Shown here piece after piece: positions 2,759 through 64,000 of a stretch of DNA of 64,000 nt. Made by a program: the position numbers and the translations under genes. Numbering within the stretch: position 1 is the stretch's first letter; each line of letters begins with the position of its first letter. The stretch spans positions 27,404,001-27,468,000 of the forward strand of contig OX597842.1 of NCBI GenBank assembly GCA_951406725.2. The letters run 5' to 3'. This DNA comes from Octopus vulgaris (lineage: Eukaryota). The notes beneath the pieces were generated by a model, which was not told where the DNA came from, made no database searches, and saw only the letters and a program-made list of their open reading frames with translations.

Positions 2759-3589
2759 TGTATTGTTCACAAATATTCACAAAATAGTAATACAACCATT
2801 CACCTGTATTGTTCACAAATCTGAAAAAGTTTGCTTAAAAGTTGTAGAAGTTGTTTTGATCATTATTTGCGTCAGTTGCCAAATAAGATTCCACAGGTCA
2901 GGGTCACCTATTTTGCATTAATGTTTTACGTTGTGGATGATATAGAGAAGAAGGCAAGCGTTTTAAAACCATGACAGACGAGTTTTTTTTCTTGTATAAA
3001 GATACTTTGTTTAACAACAATAAACAGAAAATGTGGGTCACAAAGACAAGAAGTACAACAGTAAAAAAAAACAACAAAGAAAAGTTACTTTTTACCGATT
3101 GCATCTGGAAAGCAAATAATCGAACATAGATATATATATAAGCGCAGGAGTTGCTGTGTGGTAAGTAGCTTGCTTACCAACCACATGGTTCCGGGTTCAG
3201 TCCCACTGCGTGGCACCTTGGGCAAGTGTCTTCTACTATAGCCTTGGGCCGACCAAAGCCTTGTGAGTGGATTTGGTAGACGGAAACTGAAAGAAACCCG
3301 TCGTATATATGTATATATATATAAGCGCAGGAGTTGCTGTGTGGTAAGTAGCTTGCTTACCAACCAGATGGTTCCGGGTTCAGTCCCACTGCGTGGCACC
3401 TTGGGCAAGTGTCTTCTACTATAGACTCGGGCCGACCAAAGCCTTGTGAGTGGATTTGGTAGACGGAAACTGAAAGAAACCCGTCGTATATATATGTATA
3501 CATATATATATGTGTGTGTGTGGGTGTCTGTGTTTGTCCCCCCCAACATCGCTTGACAACCGATGCTGGTGTGTTTACGTCCCCGTAAC

Positions 3590-5995
3590 TTAGCGGTTCG
3601 GCAAAAGAGACCGATAGAAAATGTACTAGGCTTACGAAGAATAAGTCCTGGTGTCGATTTGCTCAACTAAACAGGTGGTGCTCCAGCATGGCCACAGTCA
3701 AATGACTGAAACGAGTAAAAGAGTAAACTTAGCGGTTTGGCAAAAGAGACCGATAGAATAAGTACTAGGCTTACAAAGAATAAGTCCTGGGGTCGATTTG
3801 CTCAACTAAAAAGGTGGTGCTCCAGCATGGCCACAGTCAAATGACTGAAACGAGTAAAAGAGTAAACTTAGCGGTTCGGCAAAAGAGACTGATAGAATAA
3901 GTACTAGGCTTACAAAGAATAAGTCCTGGGGGGATCGATTTGCTTGACTAAAAAGGTGGTGCTCCAGCATGGCCACAGTCAAATGACTGAAACGAGTAAA
4001 AGAGTAAACTTAGCGGTTCGGCAAAAGAGACCGATAGAATAAGTACTAGGCTTACAAAGAATAAGTCCTGGGGGGATCGATTTGCTTGACTAAAAAGGTG
4101 GTGCTCCAGCATGGCCACAGTCAAATGACTGAAACGAGTAAAAGAGTAAACTTAGCGGTTCGGCAAAAGAGACCGATAGAATAAGTACTAGGCTTACAAA
4201 GAATAAGTCCTGGGGGGGATCGATTTGCTTGACTAAAAAGGTGGTGCTCCAGCATGGCCACAGTCAAATGACTGAAACGAGTAAAAGAGTAAACTTAGCG
4301 GTTCGGCAAAAGAGACCGATAGAATAAGTACTAGGCTTACAAAGAATAAGTCCTGGGGGGATCGATTTGCTTGACTAAAAAGGTGGTGCTCCAGCATGGC
4401 CACAGTCAAATGACTGAAACGAGTAAAAGAGTAAACTTAGCGGTTTGGCAAAAGAGACCGATAGAATAAGTACTAGGCTTACAAAGAATAAGTCCTGGGG
4501 TCGATTTGCTCAACTAAAAAGGTGGTGCTCCAGCATGGCCACAGTCAAATGACTGAAACGAGTAAAAGAGTAAACTTAGCGGTTCGGCAAAAGAGACTGA
4601 TAGAATAAGTACTAGGCTTACAAAGAATAAGTCCTGGGGGGATCGATTTGCTTGACTAAAAAGGTGGTGCTCCAGCATGGCCACAGTCAAATGACTGAAA
4701 CGAGTAAAAGAGTAAACTTAGCGGTTCGGCAAAAGAGACCGATAGAACAAGTACTAGGCTTACAAAGAATAAGTCCTGGGGTCGATTTGCTCGACTAAAA
4801 AAGTGGTGCTCCAGCATGGCCACAGTCAAATGACTGAAACGACTAAAAGAGTAAACTTAGCGGTTCGGCAAAAGAGACTGATAGAATAAGTACTAGGCTT
4901 ACAAAGAATAAGTCCTGGGGGGGGGATCGATTTGCTCGACTAAAGGTGGTGCTCCAGCATGGCCACAGTCAAATGACTGAAACGAGTAAAAGAGTAAACT
5001 TAGCGGTTCGGCAAAAGAGACTGATAGAATAAGTACTAGGCTTACAAAGAATAAGTCCTGGGGGGGGATCGATTTGCTCGACTAAAGGTGGTGCTCCAGC
5101 ATGGCCACAGTCAAATGACTGAAACGAGTAAAAGAGTAAACTTAGCGGTTCGGCAAAAGAGACCGATAGAATAAGTACTAGGCTTACAAAGAATAAGTCC
5201 TGGTGTCGATTTGCTTGACTAAAAAGGTGGTGCTCCAGCATGGCCACAGTCAAATGACTGAAACAAGTAAAAGAGTAAACTTAGCGGTTCGGCAAAAGAG
5301 ACTGATAGAATAAGTACTAGGCTTACAAAGAATAAGTCCTGGGGGGGGGTTCGATTTGCTTGACTAAAAAGGTGGTGCTCCAGCATGGCCACAGTCAAAT
5401 GACTGAAACAAGTAAAAGAGTAAACTTAGCGGTTCGGCAAAAGAGACCGATAGAATAAGTACTAGGCTTACAAAGAATAAGTCCTGGGGGGATCGATTTG
5501 CTTGACTAAAAAGGTGGTGCTCCAGCATGGCCACAGTCAAATGACTGAAACGAGTAAAAGAGTAAACTTAGCGGTTCGGCAAAAGAGACCGATAGAATAA
5601 GTACTAGGCTTACAAAGAATAAGTCCTGGGGGGATCGATTTGCTTGACTAAAAAGGTGGTGCTCCAGCATGGCCACAGTCAAATGACTGAAACGAGTAAA
5701 AGAGTAAACTTAGCGGTTCGGCAAAAGAGACTGATAGAATAAGTACTAGGCTTACAAAGAATAAGTCCTGGGGGATCGATTTGCTCGACTAAAAGTGGTG
5801 CTCCAGCATGGCCACAGTCAAATGACTGAAACGAGTAAAAGAGTAAACTTAGCGGTTCGGCAAAAGAGACCGATAGAATAAGTACTAGGCTTACAAAGAA
5901 TAAGTCCTGGGGGGGATCGATTTGCTCGACTAAAAAAGGTGGTGCTCCAGCATGGCCACAGTCAAATGACTGAAACAAGTAAAAGAGTAAAGAGT
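3590..5995 (+). repeat. Tandem array of 17 units (~139-145 bp) made from the 3' half of SINE family A
   Basis: Unit ttagcggttcggcaaaagaga...gactgaaacgagtaaaagagtaaac starts at about 3590, 3729, 3868, 4010 ... 5710, 5849; units vary mainly in a G-run and an A-run. Confidence 0.95.
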
Positions 5996-11972: not shown

Positions 11973-12573
11973 TCTTTTACTCATTTACTTGTTTCAGTCA
12001 TTTGACTGCGGCCATGCTGGAGCACCGCCTTTAGTTGAGCAAATCGATCCCGGGACTTATGCTTTGTAAGCCCAGTACTTATTCTATCGGTCTCTTTTGC
12101 CGAACTGCTAAGTGACGGGGACGTAAACACACCAGCATTGGCTGTCAAGCAATGCTAGGGGAACAAACACAGACACACATACATATATATACATATACAT
12201 ATATACGACAGGCTTCTTCCAGTTTCCGTCTACCAAATCCACTCACAAGGCATTGGTCGGCCCGGGGCTATAGCAGAAGACACTTGCCCAAGATATCACG
12301 CAGTGGGACTGAACCCGGAACCATGTGGTTGGTTAGCAAGCTACTTACCATACAGCCACTCCTACAGTAGTATATATATACTACAGTAGTATATATAAAC
12401 AACATGATGTCTACCATCAATAGTCAGCGAAGAGCTGAAGAGGCCTGGGCCATTGAGAAGATCAAACTCAATCCCAAAGTGTTCTTTTCATTTGCAAAAA
12501 ACACAGAGTCACTGGTTCTACTGTTGGCCCTCTGATTGATGAAAATGGTACTCTTCAAGACAATGCCAAAACC

Positions 12574-14274
12574 ATGGGAGAGATATTGCAGAAACAATAT
12601 TGCTCTGTTTTCAGCAATCCTGATATGACTGATCTGGGCTGTATCAGTGATGTTACTCCCCAATACACTTTATCGGACATAACCTTTGGCGCTCCTGATG
12701 TCTTAGCAGTAATAAAGGAAATGAAGCATAATTCAGCAGTAGGTCCCAATAGGTTCCCTGCTTGTGTCTTGAAGATGTGTCAAAACCAACTTGCACCCCC
12801 TCTAGCCAATCTGTGGTGGAACTCACTGAATGCTGGATATATACCAGAAGACCTTCTATCCCAGTCTGTTATCCCAGTTTTCAAACAAGGAAACAAATCG
12901 CTTGCCGTGAATTACCGTCCAATCTCACTCACCTCTCATATCATTAAGGTATTTGAGAGAGTGCTGAGATCACGTATGACTCACTTCCTTGAGAGTCATA
13001 ATATGCTGAACTCCATCCAGCATGGATTCCGTAATGGGAGAGATTGCCTGACGCAGCTACTGCATCATTTTGATGACATTTTGAGAGCCTTGGGAGAGGG
13101 TTCCAACACTGATGTCATCTACCTTGATTTCAGCAAGGCCTTTGACAGGGTTGATCATAAGATCCTTCTGAGAAAGCTGTCCAATATTGGTGTCACTGGA
13201 AAGCTGCTGCAGTGGATCAAGTGCTTCCTGCCTAACAGAACCCAACATGTTGTAGTCGAAGGAGTCAAATCCAGCCCAGCCAAAGTCAGCAGTGGTGTCC
13301 CACAAGGCACTGTGTTGGGCCCACTTCTCTTCATCATCTACATAAATGATATTACTGACACCATCAAACACAGTAACATCAGAACCTTCGCTGATGATTC
13401 CAAGCTCCAGAAGGTCATCAATGGCGTGGATGACCGAATAAACCTTCAGTCAGACCTACTGGCTGTTGTCCAATGGGCGGAAAAGAATAACATGTTACTA
13501 AATGAAGACAAATTCGAACTGATCCACTTTGGAAGGGAGGATGCTCTGAAACTCCCATACTCTCTTCCTTCTGGAGAAATTCTCATGGCATCCAACAACA
13601 TCAGAGACTTGGGAGTAACAGTGGACAACAACATAAGCTGGGCTACACATATAAGCAGCAAAGTTGACATGGCCCGCAGAATGTGTTCCTGGATTCTCAG
13701 AACCTTCCAGTCGAGAGATTCCCACACTATTATCCTTCTCTTCTCCATTTTTGCCCGACCCCACCTTGAATACTGCTGTCCACTGTGGTCTCCCTACACA
13801 AAACAAAATATTATGAGAATTGAAGCTCCCCAAAGGTCAATCACAAAAAAGATAGATGGCATGTCAGACCTTGACTACTGGGGTAGACTAGAGAAGCTGA
13901 AATTGTATTCACTCCAACGACGCCGTGAACGCTACATTATCTGTATGATGTGGAAAATATTCCATCAGCACTGTCCGAATGATGTTGGCATCACCTTCAA
14001 AATACATCCAAGGCTTGGACCACGTGCCATCTGTCCAGAACAAAAATCTAAATCGCATCACATAACGACAATACGGCACAACTATTTCACCTCAATTGGA
14101 CCCGCTCTCTTCAACATTACACCAGGACACGTCAAAAAAGAAACTGACCACACAAAATTCAAGAAGTCTTTGGACAAATTCCTTCAAACAGTCTCGGACA
14201 AACCACCCACACCCGGATATGTCTCCGCAAACAATAACTCTCTGCTCGAATGGGCCTTGGTGCCCAAATCCTGA
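12574..14274 (+). CDS. Reverse transcriptase of a 5'-truncated CR1/Jockey-group LINE (element ~12400-14366)
   Basis: Motifs NYRPISLTS, QHGFR, YLDFSKAFDRVDH, SGVPQGTVLGPLLFIIYIND and FADD. The upstream part is frameshifted and truncated with no endonuclease domain; the 3' tail (ctaagtt..)n abuts (TA)n. Confidence 0.93.
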   Translation: MGEILQKQYCSVFSNPDMTDLGCISDVTPQYTLSDITFGAPDVLAVIKEMKHNSAVGPNRFPACVLKMCQNQLAPPLANLWWNSLNAGYIPEDLLSQSVIPVFKQGNKSLAVNYRPISLTSHIIKVFERVLRSRMTHFLESHNMLNSIQHGFRNGRDCLTQLLHHFDDILRALGEGSNTDVIYLDFSKAFDRVDHKILLRKLSNIGVTGKLLQWIKCFLPNRTQHVVVEGVKSSPAKVSSGVPQGTVLGPLLFIIYINDITDTIKHSNIRTFADDSKLQKVINGVDDRINLQSDLLAVVQWAEKNNMLLNEDKFELIHFGREDALKLPYSLPSGEILMASNNIRDLGVTVDNNISWATHISSKVDMARRMCSWILRTFQSRDSHTIILLFSIFARPHLEYCCPLWSPYTKQNIMRIEAPQRSITKKIDGMSDLDYWGRLEKLKLYSLQRRRERYIICMMWKIFHQHCPNDVGITFKIHPRLGPRAICPEQKSKSHHITTIRHNYFTSIGPALFNITPGHVKKETDHTKFKKSLDKFLQTVSDKPPTPGYVSANNNSLLEWALVPKS

Positions 14275-14363
14275 ATTGAAAGATTTCGCCAGGTGGTGCT
14301 ATTAAGTTAGACATGGCCTGGGCCAATACTGGCCAAAACCTTTCTAAGTTATTCTAAGTTAAG

Positions 14364-14409: not shown

Positions 14410-14839
14410 TCAATATAGGGTAGCAAAAAATTCAATAGAAATTTTTTCGCCACCAGCGGTCTAGTGAGAAAGAGAAAATAGTCTGAGACTATATATATAA
14501 ATTCAACAACAATTGAGGTACGGCCTCAATAGGCCATTCGACCCACTAGAAAGAGCAGCCAGGACTCAAACTGCCAAGTAGTAGTAATTCAGAAATTAAA
14601 GAAATTGTTGTTGAATATATATATATGTATATTCACACACACACTCACACACGCACGCACACACATATATATATATTCACACACGCACACACACATATAT
14701 ATATATTCACACACACACACACACATATATATATTTCTCAAGTTAGTCATGCTCTGGCAATCAGCTTTCATTTTTAAAACCTATTTTACAGATCTTTACC
14801 TGTTCACTGACAAAATTCCGTGGCTGCATTTTACAGATC

Positions 14840-14885
14840 ATGGGCCATCAAAAGTTGTTCTCCTGTTTGTTTGTGCTGTGCTTTT
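14840..14885 (+). CDS. Gene A coding exon 1: signal peptide MGHQKLFSCLFVLCF
   Basis: ttttacag|atcATG...TTT T|gtaagt; phase-1 donor; clear paralog at 58568 with homologous upstream intron. Confidence 0.8.
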
Positions 14886-15987: not shown

Positions 15988-16044
15988 ACTTGACAAAACC
16001 AGAAAGTTCGACAAAGGCACAAAGTTATAAAATTTTCAAAAATG
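15988..16044 (+). CDS. Gene A micro-exon S1 (57 nt): (Y)LTKPESSTKAQSYKIFKN
   Basis: cttttcctcttttacag|...AATG|gtaaat; phase 1-1, open frame; flanking intron homologous to those of the other micro-exons. Confidence 0.8.
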
Positions 16045-21225: not shown

Positions 21226-22005
21226 AGGTGGCGAGGTGGCAGAAACGTTAGCACACCGCGTCAAATGCGTAGCCATATTTCGTCTGCCGTTACGTTCTGA
21301 GTTCAAATTCCGCCGAGGTCGACTTTGCCTTTCATCCTTTCGGGGTCGATAAATTAAGTACCAGTTACGCACTGGGGGTCGATATAATCGACTTAATCCG
21401 TTTGTCTGTCCTTGTTTGTGTTCTCTATGTTTAGCCCCTTGTGGGTAGTAAAGAAATAGGTATTTTGTCTGCTGTTACGTTCTGAGTTCAAATTCTGCCA
21501 AGGTCGACTTTGCCTTTCATCCTTTCGGGGTCGATAAATTAAGTACCAGTTACGTACTGGGGTCGATGTAATCGACTTAATCCTTTTGTCTGTCCTTGTT
21601 TGTCCTCTCTGTGTTTAGCCCCTTGTGGGTAGTAAAGAAATAGGTATTTTGTCTGCTGTTACATTTGAGTTCAAATTCCGCCGAGGTCACTTTGCCTTTC
21701 ATCCTTTCGGGGTCGATAAATTAAGTACCAGTTATGCACTGGGGTCGATGTAATCGACTTAATCCGTTTGTCTGTCCTTGTTTGTCCCCTCTGTGTTTAG
21801 CTCCTTGTGGGTAGTAAAGAAATAGGTATTTTGTCTGCTGTTACATTCTGAGTTCAAAATCCGCCGAGGTCGACTTTGCCTTTCATCCTTTCGGGGTCGA
21901 TAAATTAAGTACCAGTTATGCACTGGGGTCGATGTAATTGGCTTAATCCGTTTGTCTGTCGTTGTTTGTCCCCTCTGTGTTTAGCTCCTTGTGGGCAGTA
22001 AAGAA
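21226..22005 (+). repeat. SINE family B head plus tandem array (~4 units of ~180 bp)
   Basis: Head ggtggcgaggtggcagaaacgttagcac; repeated unit gttctgagttcaaattccgccgaggtcgactttgcctttcatcctttcggggtcgataaattaagtaccag...gtagtaaagaaataggtattt. Single copies at 9005-9205, 28953-29195, 42135-42290, 54517-54732, 56790-57122 and 57194-57410. Confidence 0.9.
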
Positions 22006-22106
22006 ATATATAGTAGAACACACTTGCCCAAGCTGCCACGAAGTAGGACTGAACCCAGAGCCATGAGTTTGGGAAGTAAACTTCTTACTTGATTTTTTTA
22101 TTTCAG

Positions 22107-22358
22107 AAAAAATTGTATTTGGAGAAAATACCACTCTTTCTATTAATTTCCCAAATATGGAAAGACCAGTGGAGTGGAAATGTAAAAATTATACATACGG
22201 ATGCAACACGACAATGTGCACTAACACCAACGGATTTCAAGTGACTCAGAGTGGAAATCATTCCACCTTTTGGATCGGAAACATATCCTCGGAATGTTTG
22301 ACTTGGACATTTTATGACAACAACAACAACTTTGGAAAATTTGATTTGAAGACAAACG
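22107..22358 (+). CDS. Gene A Ig-like domain exon D1 (252 nt)
   Basis: tttttatttcag|...AACG|gtaagg; phase 1-1; (E)KIVFGENTTLSINFPNMERPVEWKCKNYTYGCNTTMCTNTNGFQVTQSGNHSTFWIGNISSECLTWTFYDNNNNFGKFDLKTN. Confidence 0.88.
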
Positions 22359-22545
22359 GTAAGGATATGATTTATAACAACAACAACAACAAGGTGGGGA
22401 TGGAAAAGTAAAGAGAAAGAGATATGTTTAGGATACAATATTTAGCCGAGGGAGATGTTCTGGTGGTGAGGTTACAGAAAGGCAGATAGAAAAAGAGGGA
22501 CAGGGGAAACAGTTACATTAAGAGTGTGTGTGTGTGAGAGTGAGT

Positions 22546-22586
<41 letters not shown>

Positions 22587-22913
22587 AGTGCTCAGAGGAG
22601 GAAAATTTAAAATCATATCTATGTAATAATTTGCTTGTTCGTTCGCCCGTTATACATTAGTTAGAGAGGTGGAGGTAGAGTGAGTGAGAAGTAGAGTAAG
22701 GGAGAGAGAGTGGGGGAGGAGTGAAGAAAGAAGAGAGGGAAAAGTAGAGAAGGTGATTAATATTAATACGCTTAGGCAAAATGGTCACGTGATCAGCTGA
22801 ATGTAGAGACGAAGAATGAGAGAGAACAAGAGGGAGGGAAAAGTGTTAATGATGTGTGGTGGGTTGAGGAGAGGATACTTATGACATTGTGAAAACGTTT
22901 ACTGAAGGGAAAG

Positions 22914-22949
<36 letters not shown>

Positions 22950-23949
22950 GCAGGGAAGGCAGTTACATTGAGAGAGTTGGGCAGGGGTGGTAGTTACATT
23001 GAGAGAGAGAGAGAGATAAGTGGGGTCTGGTAGCAGTGGTGGTGTTGGGGATGTATTGAGAGTAAAAAGTATTTTTTCGTTGAACTAATTTTGTTTTATA
23101 TGGTCTGTTGCTTAAAGCCTGCACATAAATGCAATTATTTCATCGTCTACACACTTAAAAATTGATATTTGTTTATAAGGATTAACTTAGCCTGAACTAT
23201 AGATTGACAAGAAACATGGTTATAAGCTTCTCGAGAAAGGATGTGAAAATATAGTTTAGGGGTCAGAGGGAAACAGCGAGAAGACATCATAAAAAGGGGA
23301 AAGACGACCCCGATAGAGACGTGAGGAAATGAATGGAGATGAACGTCAAGAATATTTAAAGAAAGCTAAACTATCAAAATGCAAATCGCCCTTTTTTACA
23401 TAGGTCCGCTTAATGTTTCCCATTCTGTGGAATTATTACGGGTCCCACTAATAATATATTATTATAACTGGAAGTGAAATAACTTTACTTAATGAAAATT
23501 AAAATGCAAATCATCCCTTCTTTCTTAAAAAGCTTCTCTTAATCTTTTTTGTTCTGTGGAATGTCCATGGGTCCCAGAGGAATTACAACCGTGTTTCGGG
23601 GTCTGCTACCACAACAGCTCCTTTATAGGATCCAGTTAGCTCAAGACATCATCAGGAGGAACCACGTCCGGTTTCGGCCCCTACTCTTCTTCCGTCTTGA
23701 CGTGGCGGGGCTCCACCTTTCGGAGGTGTCTTCAGCTCTGGTGTTGGGTACATATCTTCTTTCTTCTGTTCCCTGGCCTCTTCGATGTATCGTCAGCGAG
23801 GGTCAGCCGGTGACTGATTGTCTTGTCAAATTTCTCCCTTTAAATATTGTTAATTATTATTCAATCATTGTAACCTAATTAGCATCGATTCTCTTGATCA
23901 AATGGAAAATCTGAAAATAATCAAAGCTTTTCATTTTCCTCTTTTACAG

Positions 23950-23988
23950 GTTTCAGAAAAGCAGAAACTTATGAAATTACCCAAAATG
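23950..23988 (+). CDS. Gene A micro-exon S2 (39 nt): (G)FRKAETYEITQN
   Basis: ttttcctcttttacag|...AATG|gtaaat; phase 1-1; homologous to S1 and S3. Confidence 0.82.
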
Positions 23989-24992
23989 GTAAATGGATTT
24001 ACAAACCTTTTTCTCCTTTCAAACTAAATACTCGCTTTTAGCTTCTGTTTACCTAATCCAGGCCAACCAAAGCTTTGTTAGTGGATTAGAGCATCCGACT
24101 GCTGGAAATGAAAACTCTGATCCATTCAAGCATGATGGTCACTTGCTTGTTTCAGTCGTTAGATTGTGGCCATGCTGGGGCACCGCCATGAAGAATATTT
24201 AGTTGAATGAATTAACCGCTGTACTTATTTATTTTAAGCCTAGTACTAAAAAAAAAAAAAATTAAAAAGTAAATTAAATTTAAAATAATAATAATAAATA
24301 AAAATAATAAAATATATATTCATATATATATAAAATTTATAAGTACAAATTAATTAAAAAATATTTTTTAAAAATTTGAACTTTAAATTTAAATAATTTA
24401 AATTTTGAATTTTATATTTTATATATTTTGTATATTATATTCATTAATTTTATTTCTATGTATTGGTTTATGTTTTTCACTGTTTGATTTGCCTAATAGT
24501 GGTTTTATCTCTAATTTAATATATATATATATATGTATGTATATACGTGTGTGTGTGTGTGTGTATGTGTGTCTTTGTTTGTCCCCCCAACTTCGCTTGA
24601 AAACCGATGCTGGTGTGTTTACGTCCCCGTTACTTAGCAGTTCGGCAAAAAGTAACCGATAGAATAAGTATTAGGCTTACAAAGAATAAATCCTGGTGTC
24701 GATTTGCTCGACTAAAAAAGGTGGTGCTCCAGCATGGCCGCAGTCAAATGACTGAAACAAGTAAAAGAGTAAAGAGTCAGAGTACACACATATATGCACA
24801 CTCACATACACGCATCTGTGTTCGTTTGTATGTGTGTGATTTCGTCAATTCCCTTGCATTTGCTGGGTTTGTAATCAATGCTTTTCCCAGCGATGTCATT
24901 TGCTTGATGCCCACCACAAATGCATGTCGGGGCTTCTCGATGTGTTGCACAATCTTAGTAAATAAAAGGCTCATTTATACAGCATCATTTGT

Positions 24993-26475
24993 TAGCACGC
25001 CGGGTGAAATGCGTAGCCGTATTTCGTCTGTCGTTGCGTTCCGAGTTCAAATTCCGCTGAAGTCGACTTTGCCTCTCATCCTTTCGGGGTCGACAAATTA
25101 AGTACCAGTTACACACTGGGGTCGATGTAATCGATGTAATCCATTTGTCTGTCCTTGTTTGTCCCCTCTGTGTTTAGCCACTTGTGGGTAGTAAAGAAAT
25201 AGGTATTTCGTGTGCGCTACGTTCTGAGTTCAAATTCCGCCGAGGTCGACTTTGCCTTTCATCCTTTCGGGGTCGACAAATTAAGTACCAGTTACACACT
25301 GGGGTCGATGTAATCGACTTAATCCATTTGTCTGTCCTTGTTTGTCCCCTCTGTGTTTAGCCACTTGTGGGTAGTAAAGAAATAGGTATTTCGTGTGCGC
25401 TACGTTCTGAGTTCAAATTCCGCCGAGGTCGACTTTGCCTTTCATCCTTTCGGGGTCGACAAATTAAGTACCAGTTACACACTGGAGTCGATGTAATCCA
25501 TTTGTCTGTCCTTGTTTGTCCCCTCTGTGTTTAGCCCCTTGTGGGTAGTAAAGAAATAGGTATTTCATCTGCGCTACGTTCTGAGTTCAAATTCCGCCGA
25601 GGTCGACTTTGCCTTTCATCCTTTCGGTGTCGATAAATTAAGTACCAGTTATGCACTGGGTCGATGTAATCGACTTAATCCGTTTGTCAGTCCTTGTTTG
25701 TCCCCTCTGTGTTTAGCTCCTTGTGGGTAGTAAAGAAATAGGTATTTCGTGTGCGCTACGTTCTGAGTTCAAATTCCGCCGAGGTCGACTTTGCCTTTCA
25801 TCCTTTCGGGGTCGATAAATTAAGTACCAGTTACGCACTGGGGGTCGATATAATCGACTTAATCCGTTTGTCTGTCCTTGTTTGTGTTCTCTATGTTTAG
25901 CCCCTTGTGGGTAGTAAAGAAATAGGTATTTTGTCTGCTGTTACGTTCTGAGTTCAAATTCTGCCAAGGTCGACTTTGCCTTTCATCCTTTCGGGGTCGA
26001 TAAATTAAGTACCAGTTACGTACTGGGGTCGATGTAATCGACTTAATCCTTTTGTCTGTCCTTGTTTGTCCTCTCTGTGTTTAGCCCCTTGTGGGTAGTA
26101 AAGAAATAGGTATTTTGTCTGCTGTTACATTTGAGTTCAAATTCCGCCGAGGTCGACTTTGCCTTTCATCCTTTCGGGGTCGATAAATTAAGTACCAGTT
26201 ATGCACTGGGGTCGATGTAATCGACTTAATCCGTTTGTCAGTCCTTGTTTGTCCCCTCTGTGTTTAGCTCCTTGTGGGTAGTAAAGAAATAGGTATTTTG
26301 TCTGCTGTTACATTCTGAGTTCAAAATCCGCCGAGGTCGACTTTGCCTTTCATCCTTTCGGGGTCGATAAATTAAGTACCAGTTATGCACTGGGGTCGAT
26401 GTAATCGGCTTAATCCGTTTGTCTGTCGTTGTTTGTCCCCTCTGTGTTTAGCCCCTTGTGGGCAGTAAAGAAATA
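24993..26475 (+). repeat. Tandem array of SINE family B (~8 units); resumes at 27975-28342
   Basis: Same ~180 bp unit as 21226-22005; the last four units carry the same diagnostic variants as the 21290-22005 units. Confidence 0.9.
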
Positions 26476-26573
26476 TATAGTAGAACACACTTGCCCAAGC
26501 TGCCACGAAGTAGGCCTGAACCCAGAGCCATGAGTTTGGGAAGTAAACTTCTTACTTGATTTCTTTATTTCAG

Positions 26574-26825
26574 AAAAAGTTGTATTTGGAGAAAGTACCA
26601 CTCTTTCTATTAGTCTCCCAAATATGGAAAGACCAGTGGAGTGGAAATGTAAAGATTATACATACGGATGCAACACGACAATGTGCGCTAACACCAACGA
26701 ATTTCAAGTGACTCAGAGTGGAAATCATTCCACCTTTTGGATCGGAAACATATCCTCGGAATGTTTGACTTGGACATTTTATGACAACAACAACAACTTT
26801 GGAAAATTTGATTTGAAGACAAACG
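26574..26825 (+). CDS. Gene A Ig-like domain exon D2 (252 nt), recent duplicate of D1
   Basis: ctttatttcag|...AACG|gtaaag; 245/252 nt identical to D1; lies in block ~25755-27975, which duplicates ~21290-23518. Confidence 0.8.
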
Positions 26826-27010
26826 GTAAAGATATGATTTATAACAATAACAACAACAAGGTGGGGATGGAAAAGTAAAGAGAAAGTGATATGTTTAGGA
26901 TACAATATTTAGCCGAGGGAGATGTTCTGGTGGTGAGGTTACAGAAAGGCAGATAGAAAAAGAGGGACAGGGGAAACAGTTACATTAAGAGTGTGTGTGT
27001 GTGAGAGTGA

Positions 27011-27060
<50 letters not shown>

Positions 27061-28450
27061 TAAAGTGCTCAGAGGAGGAAAATTTTAAAATCATATCTAT
27101 GTAATAATTTGCTTGTTCGTTCGCCCGTTATACATTAGTTAGAGAGGTGGAGGTAGAGTGAGTGAGAAGTAGAGTAAGGGAGAGAGAGTGGGGGAGGAGT
27201 GAAGAAAGAAGAGAGGGAAAAGTAGAGAAGGTGATTAATATTAATACGCTTAGGCCAAATGGTCACGTGATCAGCTGAATGTAGAGACGAAGAATGAGAG
27301 AGAACAAGAGGGAGGGAAAAGTGTTAATGATGTGTGGTGGGTTGAGGAGAGGATACTTATGACATTGTGAAAACGTTTACTGAAGGGAAAGGCAGATAGA
27401 GAGAGAGAGATGGGCAGGGAAGGCAGTTAAATTGAGAGAGTTGGGCAGGGGAGGCAGTTACATTGAGAGAGGTAGAAGTGGGGGCTGGTAGCAGTGGTGG
27501 TGTTGGGGATGTATTGAGAGTAAAAAGTATTTTTTCGTTGAACTAATTTTGTTTTATATGGAGTGTCGCTTAAAGCCTGCACATGAATGCAATTATTTCA
27601 TCGTCTACACACTTAAAAATTGATATTTGTTTATAAGGATTAACTTAGCCTGAACTATAGATTGACAAGAAACACGGTAACAAGCTTCTCGAGAAAGGAT
27701 GTGAAAATATAGTTCAGGGGTCAGAGGGAAACAGCGAGAAGACATCATAAAAAGGGGAAAGACGACCCCGATGGAGACGTGAGGAAATGAATGGAGATGA
27801 ACGTCAAGAATATTTAAAGAAAGCTAAACTATCAAAATGCAAATCGCCCTTTTTTACATAGGTCCGCTTAATGTTTTCCATTCTGTGGAATTATTACGGG
27901 TCCCACTAATAATATATTATTATAACTGGAAGTGAAATAACTTTACTTAATGAAAATTAAAATGCAAATCATCCCTCCTTTCATCCTTTCGGGGTCGACA
28001 AATTAAGTACCAGTTACACACTGGAGTCGATGTAATCGATGTAATCCATTTGTCTGTCCTTGTTTGTCCCCTCTGTGTTTAGCCCCTTGTGGGTAGTAAA
28101 GAAATAGGTATTTCATCTGCGCTACGTTCTGAGTTCAAATTCCGCCGAGGTCGACTTTGCCTTTCATCCTTTCGGGGTCGACAAATTAAGTACCAGTTAC
28201 GTACTGGGGCCGATGTAATCGACTTAATCCATTTGTCTGTCCTTGTTTGTCCCCTCTATGTTTAGCCACTTGTGGGTAGTAAAGAAATAGGTATTTCATC
28301 TGCGCTACGTTCTGAGTTCAAATTCTGCCGAGGTCGACTTTGCTGAACCCTAATTATTAAGCATTTACCGTGAAATGGTCCTTTTTTCATGCCGAATTCT
28401 ACTTGGTGAAATTATTGATTACTTCTTAATTAATTAATTTTACCCTTTGT

Positions 28451-28661: not shown

Positions 28662-28910
28662 ATAATGGTGCACTCAATGTAAGCGCTACACTAATGATTG
28701 AAATACCAAACATGCAAAGACCGACCGTTTGGAAATACAACAATTATAAATACGAATGTGATACGACATGCGCTAACAGCCCCGAATACAAAGTGACGCA
28801 GGATGGAGATATATCGACTTTTTGGATCCAAAATGTAATTAAGGAACGATTGACTTGGAAATTTGAAGACGATAATTTGGAATCATCACAATTTGATTTG
28901 AAGATGCACA
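28662..28910 (+). CDS. Gene A Ig-like domain exon D3 (249 nt)
   Basis: ctttatttcag|...CACA|gtaagg; (D)NGALNVSATLMIEIPNMQRPTVWKYNNYKYECDTTCANSPEYKVTQDGDISTFWIQNVIKERLTWKFEDDNLESSQFDLKMH. Confidence 0.87.
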
Positions 28911-29719
28911 GTAAGGAATATTATTTATAATATTAATAATCCTTTCTACTAAGGCAGCAAGCTGGCAGAAACGTTAGTAGGCCGGGCAAAATGCTTAGCA
29001 GTATTTCGTGTGCTGTTACGTTGTGAGTTCAAATTCCGCCGAGGTCGACTTTGCCTTTCATCCTTTCGGGGTCAATTAAATAAGTACCAGTTATGCACTG
29101 GGGTCGATATAGTCGACTTAATCCATTTGTCTGTCCTTGTTTGTCCTCTCTATGTTTTGTCCCTTGTGGGTAGTAAAGAAATAGGTATTTCATCTGTCTC
29201 TGTCACACACAGACAGAAAGAGAGAGAAATCAACAGAAAGTGTCAAGCTTTTAACAAATTTCCATAGGAAGTGGTTTTCCGAAGTTTTAGACATTTTTTC
29301 TTCAGGGAACAAGACTAAAATAACGAGAAATACGGAAGAGATTAACATCCTATAAGTTAGAAAGAAAACTGATTGTTTTTATTTAATTTCACTCCTGTCA
29401 ACTTCTTCCTGTACAAGGACTCTCTCCGAAAAGTTGGATTTTCCACTCACCATGGTCATTTCGCCGTACACTTTCCATTCATTACAAGTAGACAAGAGAC
29501 GCCTTTCCAATGCAGACCATCACCAATGTCTTTGAATTCTGTGAAGGCATTCAACCACATGTTCAATGCATTCACTCAAACTGCCGCTGTATATAATGTG
29601 TAATTCTATTTACAAATGATAATTATTATTATTTAATTATTCTAACATAAATTGCAATCAATCCTGTTGATTAAATGTAAAATGTGAAAATCTAAAAGTT
29701 TTCTTTTCTTCTTTTCCAG

Positions 29720-29758
29720 GTTTGGCAAGAAGAGAAAGTTACAATATTACTCAAAGTG
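29720..29758 (+). CDS. Gene A micro-exon S3 (39 nt): (S)LARRESYNITQS
   Basis: cttcttttccag|...AGTG|gtaaat; phase 1-1. Confidence 0.8.
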
Positions 29759-30454
29759 GTAAATGGATCAACAAACCTTTTTCTCCTTTTAAACTAGAAA
29801 TTGTCTTTTCAATTCCGTTTCTTTACTTAACTCAGTTTTTAGCCACTTTTTTAAAAAAACTTTTTCCAATCAGATCAATTTCATTTAACATCACAAAAAA
29901 AATACAAGCATGGAAAAGTGGACGTTAGAATGTTGTTGACGATGATGACGATGACGATTGATGAGGCAATTGATGATGATTGATTGACGATGATTGATGA
30001 TGATGATTGATGATGATGATTGATGATGATGATTGATGATTAATGATGATTGATGGTGATTGAGTTGGATAATTATTAAGGATCCGACAGGCTGCAGGAC
30101 TTTGACAAGATCCAATGACTGAGGAGAGGGAGAGATAACTGAAGGGAGAGAAAGGATGCGACCAGTGAAGACAGTGCAGGAAGGGAAGAGGACATAATGG
30201 AAATAAGGGATGAAGTTGTTCTGGCAGGGTGGATGGGGTTGGGGGGAAAATAAACGGTAAGGGAGAGAAAATGGCAAGGAGTGATATGTGACGATTCTGG
30301 TTCCAAATGAATACAACACCTGAGTAGTGCCATTGACAGATGAGTGATGGGGAACTGGGTGTTAAGGGAACGAGATGTGGGGAAAGCTTGATGAGGGAGA
30401 AGAATAGTTTACAAGCATAAAGAAAATGCATTTTGGACATCATCTTTTACTAGG

Positions 30455-30730
30455 ATGGACGATTCTTCTCAATCATTGTGTTTTGTCAATCATCTCAGTC
30501 TTTTGTCATCTCCTCTTGAGTTCAGCCTTCACCGCTTTATCCCATGTCTTCCTGGGTCTCCCTCTTCAACAAGTTCCATCCACTTAAAGCACTTCTTTAA
30601 ACAGCTGCCCTCATCCTTATGCATCACATCACGAAACCATTGCAGACTCCTTTTTCCGTAGCCTTCATCTGTTCTCTCTTTTGCCTAAATTTTCTCTTGA
30701 TACTTTAACACTTTCTTTTGTATGTACACT
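30455..30730 (-). pseudogene. Degenerate RTE-clade LINE 3' fragment (duplicated at 32045-32320; related relic ~62230-62450)
   Basis: Reverse strand reads ..LQWFRDVMHKDEGSCLKKC.. with a frameshifted GRPRKTW-like motif typical of RTE C-termini. Confidence 0.55.
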
Positions 30731-31266
30731 GTGGAAGCACATGACCTAGTGGTTAGAGCAGGGTTCGAATCTCAGACCGGGCGATGTGTGTGTTTATGAG
30801 TGAAACACCTAAGCTCCACGCGGTTCCGGCAGAAGATAATGGCGAAACTTCTGCTGACTCTTTTGCCACAACTTTCTCTCACTCTTTCCTCCTGCATCTT
30901 GCAGCTCACCTGTGACGGACTAGCAACCCGTCCAGGTGGGAACCTATACGCAAAGAAACCGGGAAACCGAACCTTATGAGCCAGGCATGGCTCGAGAAGG
31001 AACAAACAAGTATGTACACAGGTATTGCACATCCAAAGGAGCACACTAGCTTTATTCCTCTCTATTGTTTATATGTTCTCTGCATTTAGGGCCCATCTCT
31101 CACTATCATGTAGCTTTGCTCTTCATACACGAACATCATACAATGTGTAATTCTATTTACAAATGATAATTATTATTATTTAATTATTCTAACATAAATT
31201 GCAATCAATCCTGTTGATTAAATGTAAAATGTGAAAATCTAAAAGTTTTCTTTTCTTCTTTTCCAG

Positions 31267-31305
31267 GTTTGGCAAGAAGAGAAAGTTACAATATTACTCA
31301 AAGTG
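31267..31305 (+). CDS. Gene A micro-exon S3' (identical duplicate of S3)
   Basis: Identical 39 nt and identical splice sites to 29720-29758. Confidence 0.7.
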
Positions 31306-33424
31306 GTAAATGGATCAACAAACCTTTTTTCTCCTTTTAAACTAGAAATTGTCTTTTCAATTCCGTTTCTTTACTTAACTCAGTTTTTAGCCACTTTTTT
31401 AAAAAAACTTTTTCCAATCACCTCAATTTCATTTAACATCACAAAAAAATACAAGCATGGAAAAGTGGACGTTAGAATGTTGTTGATGATGATGACGATG
31501 ACGATTGATGATGCAATTGATGATGATTGATTGATTGATGATTGATGATGATGATTGATGATTGATGATTGATGATTGATGATGATGATGAGGATGATGA
31601 TGATTGATGATGATGGTGATGATTGATGATTGATGATGATTGATGGTGATTGTATTGGCTAATTATTAAGGATCCGACAGGCTGCAGGACTTTGACAAGA
31701 TCCAATGACTGAGGAGAGGGAGAGATAACTGAAGGGAGAGAAAGGATGCGACCAGTGAAGACAGTGCAGGAAGGGAAGAGGACATAATGGAAATAAGGGA
31801 TGAAGTTGTTCTGGCAGGGTGGATGGGGTTGGGGGGAAAATAAACGGTAAGGGAGAGAAAATGGCAAGGAGTGATATGTGACGATTCTGGTTCCAAATGA
31901 ATACAACACCTGAGTAGTGCCATTGACAGATGAGTGATGGGGAACTGGGTGTTAAGGGAACGAGATGTGGGGAAAGCTTGATGAGGGAGAAGAATAGTTT
32001 ACAAGCATAAACAGAATGCATTTTGGACATCATCTTTTACTGGGATGGACGATTCTTCTCAATCATTGTGTTTTGTCAATCATCTCAGTCTTTTGTCATC
32101 TCCTCTTGAGTTCAGCCTTCACCGCTTTATCCCATGTCTTCCTGGGTCTCCCTCTTCAACAAGTTCCATCCACTTAAAGCACTTCTTTAAACAGCTGCCC
32201 TCATCCTTATGCATCACATCACGAAACCATTGCAGACTCCTTTTTCCGTAGCCTTCATCTGTTCTCTCTTTTGCCTAAATTTTCTCTTGATACTTTAACA
32301 CTTTCTTTTGTATGTACACTGTGGAAGCACATGGCCTAGTGGTTAGAGAAGCAGACACGCGGTCGAGGGATCGCGGGTTCGAATCTCAGACCGGGCGATG
32401 TGTGTGTTTATGAGTGAAACACCTAAGCTCCACGCGGTTCCGGCAGAAGATAATGGCGAAACTTCTGCTGACTCTTTTGCCACAACTTTCTCTCACTCTT
32501 TCCTCCTGCATCTTGCAGCTCACCTGTGACGGACTGGCAACCCGTCCAGATGGGGAACCTATACGCAAAGAAACCGGGAAACCGAACCTTATGAGCCAGG
32601 CATGGCTCGAGAAGGAACAAACATGTATGTACACTGGTATTGCACATCCAAAGGAGCACACTAGCTTTATTCCTCTCTATTGTTTATATGTTCTCTGCAT
32701 TTAGGGCCCATCTCTCACTATCATGTAGCTTTGCTCTTCATACACGAACATCATACAATGTGCCTTTCACTTTGAGGGAACTTATGTTGTCCAAGCTGCT
32801 TGCTTCTTCAGAGACGACCGTATCATGTCAAAAGCTTTTTCCAGGAAACGAATACCAAATGCAATGATTTTAGCTAAATTCATCTCTTGCAGTTGTTTTA
32901 CTCAGTAGATGGCAGCAGTAGCCCTTCTTCCTGGCAGAAAATCAAACTGCATCTCATCTAGTCTAATTCTGTTTCTAATTAATTATAACTTTCTTGACCT
33001 GGTCAATCAATTTTAAGGCCTCTCCTTTATGCTTGTAACATCTGACTACAACTTGATTTCCTTCTCAAGCGATGCCAGGCTCATAAGGGCCAGTTTCCTG
33101 GTTTCAGTGGCATAGAAATTTCTGTTCAACTTGATTAACATTATGGGTGACAAGGGTGTATCTTAGTCTGCACAATCTTAGTAAACAAAAGGCTCGTTTA
33201 TATGGGGTCGTTTGTTTCCAGTTTACTAGGTAACACATGACTTGAGTCTTTGCTATTCAATAGATTGGGATATTAGGACATGAAGAGCATCGAATTGTAC
33301 ACAAAGTAAATGCTGCTCCCAAGTAGCGAAAAGTAGGTGTTAAAATGGCAATGATGAAAAAAACAACCTGAAATTTTTCATATGGTTAACCAATCACTAA
33401 TGTTGATTTATCTTTTTACTTTAG

Positions 33425-33673
33425 AACCAGTTGCTTTAGGAGGCAGTGTCACACTTCATATTGAAGTAGCCGAGATGACAGGAATTGTTTTCTGGAAAAA
33501 CAACAACGGTAGATATGAATGTAACCCGACTTGTTATAATTACGGTAACCATGAAGTTACACGAGATGGTAGCAAATCTACTCTTTCGATCCGAATGGTA
33601 TCAGAACAAGATTTCACTTGGCGTTTTTGTGACTTGTATCTCTGCTCTGCAAAATATACCTTAATGACAAAAG
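33425..33673 (+). CDS. Gene A membrane-proximal Ig-like domain exon D4 (249 nt)
   Basis: tctttttactttag|...AAAG|gtaagg; (E)PVALGGSVTLHIEVAEMTGIVFWKNNNGRYECNPTCYNYGNHEVTRDGSKSTLSIRMVSEQDFTWRFCDLYLCSAKYTLMTK. Confidence 0.87.
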
Positions 33674-35655: not shown

Positions 35656-35906
35656 GTGAAGAAACAGAAACAACGACAACAAAAGATGCCGAAACAACAA
35701 CAACAAAAGATGCCGAAACAACAACAACAAAAGATGCTGAAACTAATGGATCAGGAGACAGCTTACCAACCTATGCCTATGTCTTAATTTTCATATCTGT
35801 ATTTGTAGCCATCGTTATCATAGTCTTCGTTGTCATATTCAAAAGCAAGTCTTGCATTAAGGTCAAAACTTCTATCACCAAGTACATATCTTGTAAGAAA
35901 GGCTAG
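35656..35906 (+). CDS. Gene A terminal coding exon: Thr-rich stalk (ETTTTKDA)x3, TM helix, 21-aa basic cytoplasmic tail
   Basis: catcttttgcag|GT GAA GAA... phase 1; GEETETTTTKDAETTTTKDAETTTTKDAETNGSGDSLPT-YAYVLIFISVFVAIVIIVFVVIF-KSKSCIKVKTSITKYISCKKG*. Confidence 0.88.
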
Positions 35907-52752: not shown

Positions 52753-56134
<3,382 letters not shown>

Positions 56135-56184
56135 TTTTTATTATTATTATTATCATTTTTATTATTATTATTATTATTATTATT

Positions 56185-56620
56185 CAGTAGTTTTATTTTT
56201 ATAGCGTGCTTTCACTTCACTACCGAGCACAGCTCTGTGTGCCTTGGGTATGTGCTGTGATTTGTTGTGATACTCTGATGGTTATTGTATGGAAAGTGTT
56301 CTGCGTAGGATGTGTGCAGTGCCTAGTAGTGCAATTTTCTGTATGTTATATGTGTTTGTAAGTCCTGGTGTTTTTGTTATGTATTTGTCTGAATATTTTT
56401 TTATCATGCCTAAGGCACCTACTATGATAGGAATTGTTTCTGTTTTCAGATTCCACCTTCTAGTTACCTCTATTTCCAGGTCTTTGTATTTTGAGAGTTT
56501 CTCCATTTCTTTTAGAGACACGTTGTCATCAGCCGGTATTGATACATCAATTAGAAAGCATTTTTTTTCTTCATGATCTCTGACAACTATATCTGGTCTG
56601 TTGGCCTTAATTTCTCTATC
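56185..56620 (-). mobile_element. Second, short 3' copy of the same Dong element
   Basis: Near-identical to 52856-53293; [29 protein letters not shown]...RRTLSIQ*; flanked by (TTA)n. Confidence 0.9.
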
Positions 56621-58567: not shown

Positions 58568-58610
58568 ATGGGCCTTCTAATGTTCTCCTGTATGATTGCA
58601 TTGTGGTTTT
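58568..58610 (+). CDS. Gene B coding exon 1: signal peptide MGLLMFSCMIALWF
   Basis: attttttcag|accATG...TTT T|gtaagt; Kozak-like accATGG; paralog of 14840-14885. Confidence 0.82.
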
Positions 58611-59380
58611 GTAAGTTTTATTTTGTTGTTGTTTTAGTTTTGCTTTTTAAATCATTTTTCCTTAACATTTAGTTTTCTAAAAATATTTGTTTCAAATATC
58701 ATTTACATTAACTTGGAGAATAATTTTTTTCTGCCAGTTTTTAATGTTTGTTTTTACAAATATGTTATATTATTTATTTGGTTTTAGTCAATATAGTTAC
58801 AATCATTTTACAGCAGTGCTTGTATCATCATCATCATCATTGTTTTTTTTGTTTTTTGACATCTGATCCATTTTCACATGGCGTACGTCTCAGCAAGACA
58901 ATTTACGAAATGTCTAAGTGGTACATCCCGAATGTTTTTAAAAATTGTATTGATTCATTTTTCACAATAAAAATATTTCAAAAACACAGGAAGTTTTTGA
59001 AGATGATCCAAAAATATGATGTATGCATATCAGGAGTATTTGACAGTCCCAAAACACTTAGGAAGCAATGGGTTCTGACAACCAGGATTTTGTTAGAGGT
59101 TGGTTATGTCAGTGCATGACCAACCAATCGGATTTCTGAGTGAGAGGCTGGATCTGACCAGTTTGGACATAAAAACGTGAAACATTTTGGCCCGATATGG
59201 CCAGTTTAAATGCTAAATGGTTAATGTTTTAACTGAGAACCACATTTTCAATGCCTTCTCTCAAACTACCATTGGATATAATGAGTAATTAGATCTACAA
59301 GGTTAATTATCATTTAATCATTATAACACAAATAGTAAACAATCCTGTTGATCAAAAATATTTCTTTTCCTCTTTTACAG

Positions 59381-59419
59381 ATTTCACAAGAGCAGAAAAA
59401 TATAAAATTATTCAAAGTG
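59381..59419 (+). CDS. Gene B micro-exon S1 (39 nt): (Y)FTRAEKYKIIQS
   Basis: cttttcctcttttacag|...AGTG|gtaaat; phase 1-1; supplies a plausible signal peptidase site TRA-EK. Confidence 0.82.
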
Positions 59420-60087
59420 GTAAATGGATTTACAAACCTTTTTCTCCCTTGAAACTAAATAGTCTTTTGAAATCTGTCTTCTATCTCTTTCTCTTAACTC
59501 AGAAGATTTAGTCACTGTTTGGGGTGTCTTTTTATTTTTTGCTTTTTAAAAAAATTCTTAGGCAGTTCACTAACACAACTCAGTCACTGATATTGTTCTT
59601 TAGATAAAGCTACAGCTTTGAATCTGCCCATGGTTATCTCCCTTTGGCATTTCCCATTGATGAAGGTTAAAGAGCAAGAAACACGCATTGGGGAGTCCAC
59701 TGAGGAGTGGTTTACATCTCAGGTTGAGATGGCTGTTGGGGGTCCGTATAAGATTTTGTTGCTAAAATTTATGCACAATTAATTGGTTTTAGCTTTACAG
59801 TACACCAAATTTTTAATCAATTTTTTAAATACAGTTCCTAATAATATTTAATTATAAAAATAGGATTTTTTAAAACATGAAATGTTTATAAGGGCCCACC
59901 CGAGCAAAACAGGAATCAAAAGGGACCATAGGTGAAGAATGGTTGAAAATCATTGTGTTATAGGGAAGCACTGGGCAGATATGGTGTTTTCACACCTTTT
60001 ACCATCAGTGAGAAATTCTGGTAAATGCAGTAAATTTGCCTTTAGAAGTTAAAATATGTCACAAACATATTTTAACTAAGGAGCACA

Positions 60088-60154
<67 letters not shown>

Positions 60155-61504: not shown

Positions 61505-61753
61505 AAAATGTTGTGCTTGGAGGAAGTGCTAGACTTTCTATATATATTCCAAACATGAAGAGACCTGTGGTGTGGAAATGTGGAAACTATAAATACGAAT
61601 GTGACAGAACATGCGCTAATGGCCATGACTATACAGTTACCCACAATGGTAACCATTCTGTTCTTTGGATCCGAAAAGTAACGAAGGAATGTTTGACTTG
61701 GAGATTTGGAGATGGCAATCATAATTTTGGAAAAATTCATTTGAAGATAAACA
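61505..61753 (+). CDS. Gene B Ig-like domain exon D1 (249 nt)
   Basis: ctttatttcag|...AACA|gtaagg; (E)NVVLGGSARLSIYIPNMKRPVVWKCGNYKYECDRTCANGHDYTVTHNGNHSVLWIRKVTKECLTWRFGDGNHNFGKIHLKIN; about half identical to gene A D1 by eye. Confidence 0.88.
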
Positions 61754-61767
61754 GTAAGGAAATGATT

Positions 61768-61823
<56 letters not shown>

Positions 61824-63132: not shown

Positions 63133-63189
63133 ATTTGGCAAGTGCAAATGATTTGAGATCAGAAGGAGTTAAAAATTTCACCCAAAGTG
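63133..63189 (+). CDS. Gene B micro-exon S2 (57 nt): (N)LASANDLRSEGVKNFTQS; the gene continues past the window
   Basis: catcttccacag|...AGTG|gtaagt; phase 1-1; lies in block ~62866-63840, which duplicates ~59140-60078. Confidence 0.78.
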
Positions 63190-63905: not shown

Positions 63906-64000
63906 CCTGGAAACATGGATCCTAGAAACAGTAGCCATGAACAAGGTAGCACCAATAATTATAAAATATATAAAACTCTCTATGAATAAATAGCGGACAG
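63906..64000 (+). mobile_element. Start of another 5'-truncated Dong copy after (TAA)n
   Basis: TWILETVAMNKVAPIIIKYIKLSMNK* matches TWILETLAINKVAPTIIKFIGHSMNKW in the 54643-55110 segment. Confidence 0.8.

What the first reader, a model, noticed from the sequence alone, without database searches (positions are those of the whole stretch)
21290..28342. Domain exon duplication with breakpoints in a SINE array, creating a possible mutually exclusive D2/D3 choice
Seen: block ~21290-23518 (SINE B units, D1 and 1.15 kb of intron) is copied at ~25755-27975 into the middle of the SINE B array that precedes D3. The left junction lies in array homology; the right junction has cct(t)..tttc microhomology, and the interrupted array resumes afterwards. 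The copy stops before micro-exon S2, so one micro-exon now precedes two domain exons. Inference: SINE arrays act as recombination handles for domain shuffling, and S2 may splice to D2 or D3 (Dscam-like choice) or include both.
Basis: partly seen in the sequence, partly recalled or inferred. Interest (0 to 1): 0.75.

Follow-up and report, generated by a model that had tools for sequence, protein, structure and literature searches.

The report
Two exon alleles side by side
An octopus gene for an antibody-fold surface protein carries two versions of one exon in tandem, the second being a version that other sequenced animals carry in the first position, likely because DNA repair copied a second allele into a nearby repeat array; a Dscam-like splicing switch is unlikely.

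Summary
The duplication is in the assembly: 21291-23518 recurs at 25757-27976 (96.8%). The left joint is a 59-bp SINE homology, the right a 6-bp microhomology, and S2 is not copied. A close paralog keeps the older S-D-S-D-S-D layout. The gene belongs to an uncharacterised octopus family of Ig V-like membrane proteins (at least 83 domain exons; pN/pS about 1.5 among close pairs).

New here: D2 looks like a second allele of D1, not a diverged paralog. In a probable RNA run one contig reads S1, D2-type exon, S2, D3. Two DNA runs carry D2-type letters and run unbroken through the point where the copy ends. So the two-exon haplotype is likely rare or private (real about 70-75%, assembly error about 20%).

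Mutually exclusive splicing is unsupported: both exons are multiples of three, the intron is 1836 nt, no docking/selector pairing was found, and family gene models already join D to D. D2 has the only donor of 54 lacking G at +5, so it is likely an optional exon. SINE arrays are not a general shuffling handle: 22 domain exons in the most duplicated cluster have none. Modest interest.

The parts
14837..14885 (+). Signal-peptide exon, ATG at 14840
   Evidence: Sequence; homologous to first exons of paralogs
15988..16044 (+). Micro-exon S1 (57 nt, phase 1-1)
   Evidence: its 3' end is joined to a D2-type exon in a contig of run X3 (tables 7, 8)
21276..22008 (+). SINE B array A (4 units of about 183 bp) before D1
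   Evidence: family name not assigned, no Rfam match
22107..22358 (+). Domain exon D1 (252 nt, phase 1-1); the D1-type allele
   Evidence: D1-type letters exact in a contig of run X9 (22066-22178)
23950..23988 (+). Micro-exon S2 (39 nt), not copied; predicted first strand of the next Ig domain
   Evidence: D-end to S2 joint in runs X2 and X3; strand role inferred from S3
25019..25756 (+). Native B units B1-B3 plus mosaic unit at 25583 (body as A3 of the copy, tail as B1/B2)
   Evidence: body 0 of 102 differences to the copy's third unit, tail 0 of 32 to B1/B2
25757..25815 (+). Left junction: 59-bp exact homology between B and A units
25757..27976 (+). Inserted copy of 21291-23518 (array, D2, 1.15 kb of intron)
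26574..26825 (+). Domain exon D2 (252 nt; 7 changes from D1, all non-synonymous; donor GTAAAG)
   Evidence: all 7 letters occur together in contigs of X1, X2, X3
27977..27982 (+). Right junction: CCTTTC microhomology
   Evidence: donor letter 23519C seen in one low-depth contig of X3
27977..28343 (+). Rest of the B array (first unit identical to B3 apart from a 9-nt indel)
28662..28910 (+). Domain exon D3 (249 nt)
   Evidence: 96% to the paralog's second domain exon
29720..29758 (+). Micro-exon S3
31267..31305 (+). Micro-exon S3b, identical copy made by a separate 1.55-kb tandem duplication with none of four probed repeat families (SINE B included) at its ends
   Evidence: 18 substitutions of 1556
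33425..33673 (+). Domain exon D4 (249 nt)
   Evidence: weak Pfam Ig_3, ig and V-set hits, E 0.026-0.079, below cut-off
35656..35906 (+). Stalk, membrane helix and short tail exon with stop
   Evidence: paralog's helix in model

Best explanation
This chromosome carries two versions of one Ig-domain exon in tandem, and D2 is likely a second allele of the D1 exon that was copied into the SINE array before D3 by a one-sided repair event. Inferred steps: a break in a B unit; its left end invaded the look-alike array upstream of the D2-type allele (59-bp exact homology, with a short extra switch that left the mosaic unit at 25583); 2.2 kb were copied through the exon; synthesis rejoined the right end at CCTTTC. 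The haplotype is likely rare. D2 keeps an intact acceptor and a weakened donor, so it is predicted to be an optional, in-frame cassette: mostly S2-D3, sometimes S2-D2-D3 with a D3 that lacks its S-encoded first strand.
For: Shown: one contig of run X3 (probable RNA, depth 299) reads S1 end, exon with all 7 D2 letters, S2, D3-like start. X2 has the same 7 letters and the D-to-S2 joint. DNA run X1 has D2-type letters in exon and intron, and a contig 23345-23549 that passes the copy's end into the D1 flank; X9 has both D1-type and D2-type contigs and an unbroken contig 23383-23560. Depth at D and at S2 is alike within a run (X1 177 vs 194; X9 271 vs 286), a weak hint only. All 20 listed holders have 0.74-1.00 of the D2 words, while D1 shares only 105 of 222 D2 31-mers. 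Outgroups split the 7 changes between both copies (P0007, P0060). The array resumes inside the same 59-bp register as the left joint (about 1 in 3 by chance). Unit pairs n/n+2 occur in the paralog's arrays (1/184, 5/184, 4/182), so a second B3-like unit is plausible. The event spans 4.7 kb with no gap within 20 kb. Donor +5 is A in 1 of 54 family exons, this one; a contig of X9 over the donor shows +5 G. The public gene model skips D2 (P0013).
Against: No read or contig across either junction was seen; only 21860-24060 was laid, and 127 joints and 1287 loose ends were not shown. Contigs drop minor variants, so absence of the junction in X1 and X9 is not proven. Run kinds are guesses. The unit after the junction equals B3, which the two-step model predicts directly. 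X9's D1:D2 depth (86:223) is not 1:1. Array units differ less (4 of 719) than exon and intron (34 of 1507; Fisher p 0.003), which needs a mosaic donor. No transcript from an animal with both exons was seen, so all splicing claims for this haplotype are predictions.
Confidence: 0.5

Rival explanations
1. Two steps, also real: unequal crossover between array B of a D1 chromosome and array A of a D2 chromosome duplicated the whole D-S2 module, and a 1919-bp microhomology deletion removed the second S2 and the first B units.
For: The first unit after the junction equals B3 (0 of 145); 23519 to the CCTTTC of B3 is 1919 bp; X9's depths (86:223:271:286) would also fit a full duplication on one chromosome (weak).
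Against: Needs two events; the matching register of both joints is then chance (about 1 in 3); does not explain the B1/B2-type tail of the mosaic unit.
Confidence: 0.2
2. Assembly artefact: the sequenced animal is heterozygous, and its D1 haplotype was stitched through the SINE arrays to a D2 haplotype that lacks S2.
For: D2 behaves as an allele; four laid runs show no sign of two exons in tandem among the rows shown; the genome holds no separate D2 copy elsewhere.
Against: The join would rest on 59 bp of exact match inside a 4.7-kb, gap-free stretch. The B, A3, B, A1 mosaic needs three switches. The right junction must still exist as a real deletion allele. Polishing errors could blur unit types (inference).
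Confidence: 0.2
3. One reading: D2 is an established paralogous exon and S2 splices to D2 or to D3, Dscam-like.
For: One S before two D exons, unique among 27 pairs; S supplies the N-terminal strand of the V-like fold, so one S plus one D is the natural unit; both acceptors are the family consensus.
Against: 252 and 249 nt, chain open through D4 with both included; intron 1836 nt; best shared helix 9 bp, reached by 36 of 40 shuffles upstream, none downstream; gene models join D to D in 4 of 21 family proteins; D2-type sequence follows S1, not S2, in X3.
Confidence: 0.07

Closest known systems
Alu/Alu-mediated rearrangement (AAMR) and related SINE-primed template switching (PMC6071635, passages seen)
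   Same: A chimeric repeat with short perfect homology at a copy-number junction; replication-based switching or microhomology joining as proposed routes.
   Different: Tandem SINE arrays in an octopus rather than single Alus; only one joint is repeat-to-repeat; the copied exon appears to be another allele.
Dscam1 mutually exclusive exon clusters (PMC6071210, abstract, introduction and part of methods seen; PMC13428168, passages seen)
   Same: Tandem Ig-domain exon duplication; part-domain exons; a receptor-like protein.
   Different: No docking/selector pairing, no frame or steric barrier, one duplicate only, and the duplicate is the D1 exon, not a D3 variant.
Uncharacterised Octopus Ig-like proteins (O. 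sinensis LOC115230628, LOC115225115, LOC115227428; O. bimaculoides LOC106882146, LOC106878976; O. vulgaris CAI9743580.1, CAI9744054.1)
   Same: Signal, repeated S+D modules, stalk, one membrane helix, short tail; many annotated isoforms, some skipping S or D.
   Different: This gene has the only D-without-S duplication among the loci examined, plus a doubled S3.
Gene duplications that fix a heterozygote (for example mosquito ace-1 and primate opsins; recalled, from no call)
   Same: Two alleles placed in cis on one chromosome.
   Different: Here a single exon inside a gene, with no evidence of selection for the tandem form or of its frequency.

Membership tests
Dscam-type mutually exclusive exons | Exactly one exon of the array in each mRNA | not tested
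Dscam-type mutually exclusive exons | Competing docking/selector base pairing | tested here: not met
   Best shared helix 9 bp upstream (36 of 40 shuffles reach it), none of 8 bp or more downstream; the 25 longest inverted repeats are SINE fragments or simple repeats. Perfect helices in chosen windows only.
Dscam-type mutually exclusive exons | Another enforcing mechanism: very short intron, frameshift with decay, or U2/U12 mismatch | tested here: not met
   Intron 1836 nt; 252 and 249 nt, GT-AG ends, no stop through D4.
Dscam-type mutually exclusive exons | Alternative exons are homologous tandem duplicates of like length | tested here: inconclusive
   D2 and D3 are homologous (about 52% aa), but D2 is a copy of D1, not of D3.
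Repeat-mediated (AAMR-like) rearrangement | Chimeric repeat unit with perfect homology at the junction | tested here: met
   Left joint: B-type to A1-type switch within 59 identical bases.
Repeat-mediated (AAMR-like) rearrangement | Both substrates are same-orientation copies that predate the event | tested here: met
   Arrays before D1 and before D3, both on +, also present in the paralog.
Repeat-mediated (AAMR-like) rearrangement | Junction exists in genomic DNA, not only in the assembly | tested here: inconclusive
   Not among the joints or loose ends shown for X1 and X9; their contigs cross the donor end unbroken.
Immunoglobulin superfamily, V-like domain | Ig beta-sandwich fold | tested here: met
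   Model of paralog P0007 (pLDDT 69.8) matches V domains at Z 10.8, rmsd 2.7 over 92 residues (9eba_E) and titin I9-I11 at Z 11.0, rmsd 10.4 over 257; Atlas V-set/I-set cluster score 0.90 with 151 shared features, a lead.
Immunoglobulin superfamily, V-like domain | Pfam V-set/I-set score above cut-off and canonical B-F disulfide | tested here: not met
   Only D4 hits, 13.6-15.5 bits, below cut-offs of 21.8-30; cysteines sit in a C-x3/4-C motif and the B strand has none in D1-D4.

The most novel reading that the evidence does not exclude
SINE-array-primed repair between homologous chromosomes placed two positively selected alleles of one Ig domain in a single gene, and carriers splice the extra allele in as a new domain, so allelic diversity of an unstudied octopus recognition receptor is turned into isoform and domain-number diversity.
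Probability: 0.25. Interest if true: 0.6.

Novelty: new member of a known kind. Interest (0 to 1): 0.36.

Why it matters
If real, it is a base-resolved snapshot of how a fast-evolving receptor family gains domains: an allele becomes a paralogous exon in one step. The family itself (at least 83 domain exons, 70 on one contig, excess amino-acid change) is a candidate variable recognition system in octopus and matters more than this single event. If it is an artefact, it is a warning that exon 'duplicates' at 2-3% divergence in this assembly can be alleles.

Tried and rejected
RNA editing or RNA-templated change as the source of D2: 5 of 7 differences are A>G in the D1-to-D2 direction, but D2 letters are in DNA-labelled runs and outgroups place three changes on the D1 side; rejected. 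Selection on D1/D2 alone: 7 non-synonymous, 0 synonymous gives p 0.06-0.21; not significant alone. SINE B arrays as general handles: 9 of 55 D exons have an array within 1.5 kb upstream against 5% of random places, but these share ancestry, and 22 D exons in 12 blocks (210 kb) at C29 19.74-20.33 Mb have no SINE B hit although modules there are 90-97% duplicates; rejected as a rule. Loss of S destabilising D: the D3-type domain drops about 9 pLDDT points in the D-D model, but the unchanged D1 drops about 7; inconclusive. No run is on record as RNA: no RNA holder listed. An energy-based duplex scan timed out. The Foldseek PDB search did not run. PDB sequence search gave only CD79b at E 0.015 and 0.15. 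In one search the last exon was set one base off, so the stops listed there lie in a wrong frame of that exon. Literature: no paper names six family loci; searches listed nothing on this family or event (listings only; supplements not seen; subscription journals not covered).
Full report
Observation. The block 21276-23524 recurs at 25743-27982 at 96.8%. B-type letters end at 25756, and the copy then matches the D1 array exactly for 398 bp. The longest exact match between native B units and the D1 array is 59 bp, so the left switch lies in 25757-25815. The copy ends at 27976 and SINE sequence resumes with CCTTTC. Substitutions between the copies: array 4 of 719, exon 7 of 252 (all non-synonymous), intron 25 of 1157.

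The gene. Exons on +: signal, S1, D1, S2, D2, D3, S3, S3b, D4, stalk and membrane helix. The internal exons are phase 1-1 multiples of three, and the chain with every exon included has no stop through D4. A second, separate tandem duplication doubles S3 (18 substitutions of 1556) with none of the four probed repeat families at its ends. A close paralog at C29 19.58-19.60 Mb has signal-S1-D1-S2-D3-S3-D4-TM, with D3 96% and D4 91% identical, an array before D1 and an uninterrupted array before D3. That is the older state. Proteins on a contig of the same length are labelled Octopus vulgaris. The public model of this gene, P0013, skips D2; it is a model, not evidence of splicing.

The family. A protein search of the genome gave 83 domain matches, 70 on C29, a lower bound (150 of 158 candidates scored). 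All 21 longer homologues and the single short one are from Octopus. The folded paralog matches Ig V domains (Z 10.8, rmsd 2.7, 92 residues), and S3-encoded residues from 219 align to the first strand of those domains, although S segments have pLDDT near or below 50. Of 55 D exons fetched, 54 are clean phase 1-1 exons. Among 27 disjoint nearest pairs, the 17 under 12% divergence (my cut-off) have 152 non-synonymous and 27 synonymous differences, pN/pS 1.54, binomial p 0.03; the six closest have 28 and 0. Among the ten more distant pairs the ratio is mixed, and below 1 in the five most distant. Gene conversion weakens independence.

D2 behaves as an allele. Twenty of 24 listed runs, from 9 studies and three organism codes, hold 0.74-1.00 of the D2 words; D1 alone would give about 0.47. 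The list is ranked, so it gives no frequency. I laid 4 of the 24 on 21860-24060. In X3 (RNA by guess; exon depth about 300, intron 0-15 away from repeats) one 410-nt contig reads S1 end, an exon with all 7 D2 letters, S2, then a D3-like start with 2 differences in 28. X2 has the same 7 letters and the D-to-S2 joint. No S2-back-to-D joint, the mark of S2-D2 splicing, is among the 15 joints shown (127 not shown). DNA run X1, which may be the source sample and so is not counted as independent, has 9 of 10 D2 letters around the exon, 5 of 5 in one intron contig, and a contig that carries a D2 letter through 23518 into the flank that the copy lacks. X9 (organism B) has an exact D1-type contig, D2-type letters, and an unbroken contig over 23518. 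Depth at D and S2 is alike in each run, a weak hint. A low-depth X3 contig has C at 23519, which makes the right microhomology an exact six bases. Limits: contigs merge shared words and drop minor forms, and no junction-spanning contig was seen.

Mechanism. The first unit after the right joint equals B3 (0 of 145). The unit at 25583 has the body of the copy's third unit (0 of 102) and the tail of B1/B2 (0 of 32), and n/n+2 unit pairs occur in the paralog's arrays. A one-sided templated insertion from the other allele explains the shared register of both joints and the mosaic unit with one event. Unequal crossover plus a 1919-bp deletion explains the B3 match directly but needs two events. Both resemble Alu-mediated rearrangements, where a chimeric repeat and short homology mark the joint (PMC6071635, passages). 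An assembly stitch cannot be excluded, but it would rest on 59 bp inside a 4.7-kb gap-free stretch. All of these steps are inferred.

Splicing. The known routes to mutual exclusion are a short intron, mixed spliceosomes, frameshift with decay, and competing pairing (PMC6071210, introduction). None is met: intron 1836 nt, GT-AG ends, both exons in frame, no shared helix above shuffles. Family models join D to D in 4 of 21 proteins (P0001, P0005, P0008, P0011) and S to S in 4 (P0004, P0013, P0015, P0016), which points to plain cassette skipping. D2's donor is the only one of 54 without G at +5, and X9's contig over the donor has G. That +5 changes weaken donors is established knowledge, recalled. 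D2 is therefore predicted to be optional. A model of a D-D join keeps the strand pattern; its lower confidence is not specific to that domain.

SINE handles. True for this event only. D2-D3 is the one of 27 adjacent pairs without an S between. The most duplicated cluster, 22 D exons in 210 kb fetched, has no SINE B hit, and its duplicated modules include S with D.

Verdict. A real or possibly artefactual tandem of two alleles, made by a known kind of repeat-primed rearrangement, in an unstudied and fast-evolving octopus Ig family. Not a Dscam-like system on present evidence. Searches found no paper on the family or the event (listings only).

Noticed in passing
window 29591-31147 and 31138-32762: Second tandem duplication doubles micro-exon S3 (identical exon, about 1% divergence, short AATGTG homology at the joint, no probed SINE at the ends). 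Its reality was not checked in reads.
   Followed up: partly
G000:C29 16512001-16532000 and 27389288-27391326: S-only duplications recur in other family genes (three S in a row; two S in a row), some with one end in another repeat family.
   Followed up: partly
G000:C29 27389503-27390478 and 27467002-27467971 (window about 63000-63970): Micro-exon regions of the upstream and downstream neighbour genes are 97.6% identical 77 kb apart, which suggests recent conversion between paralogs.
   Followed up: no
window 28662-28910; run X3 loose end behind S2: The D3-like start in X3 differs at 2 of 28 letters and encodes the LSVSATL motif seen in P0009, so D3 is polymorphic too or the contig crosses paralogs.
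   Followed up: no
window 22107-22358; run X9: A run under a second organism code carries both D1-type and D2-type letters, which could mean a polymorphism shared across species or a labelling difference.
   Followed up: no
window 58568-63191 and L011-L013: Next family gene begins in the window (signal exon, S, D, S); upstream another ends at L014-L015. Three genes lie head to tail.
   Followed up: partly
P0002, P0003, P0004 clusters: O. sinensis LOC115225115 has 18 annotated isoforms with alternative first exons and skipped modules; a better place to look for real splice diversity in this family.
   Followed up: no
window 3587-5991: Array of 17 units of 142 bp from another SINE-like repeat (96% unit identity).
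   Followed up: no
window 12400-14280 and 52870-56620: Long stretches that look like LINE remnants by eye, the first inside the gene's upstream region; not tested.
   Followed up: no
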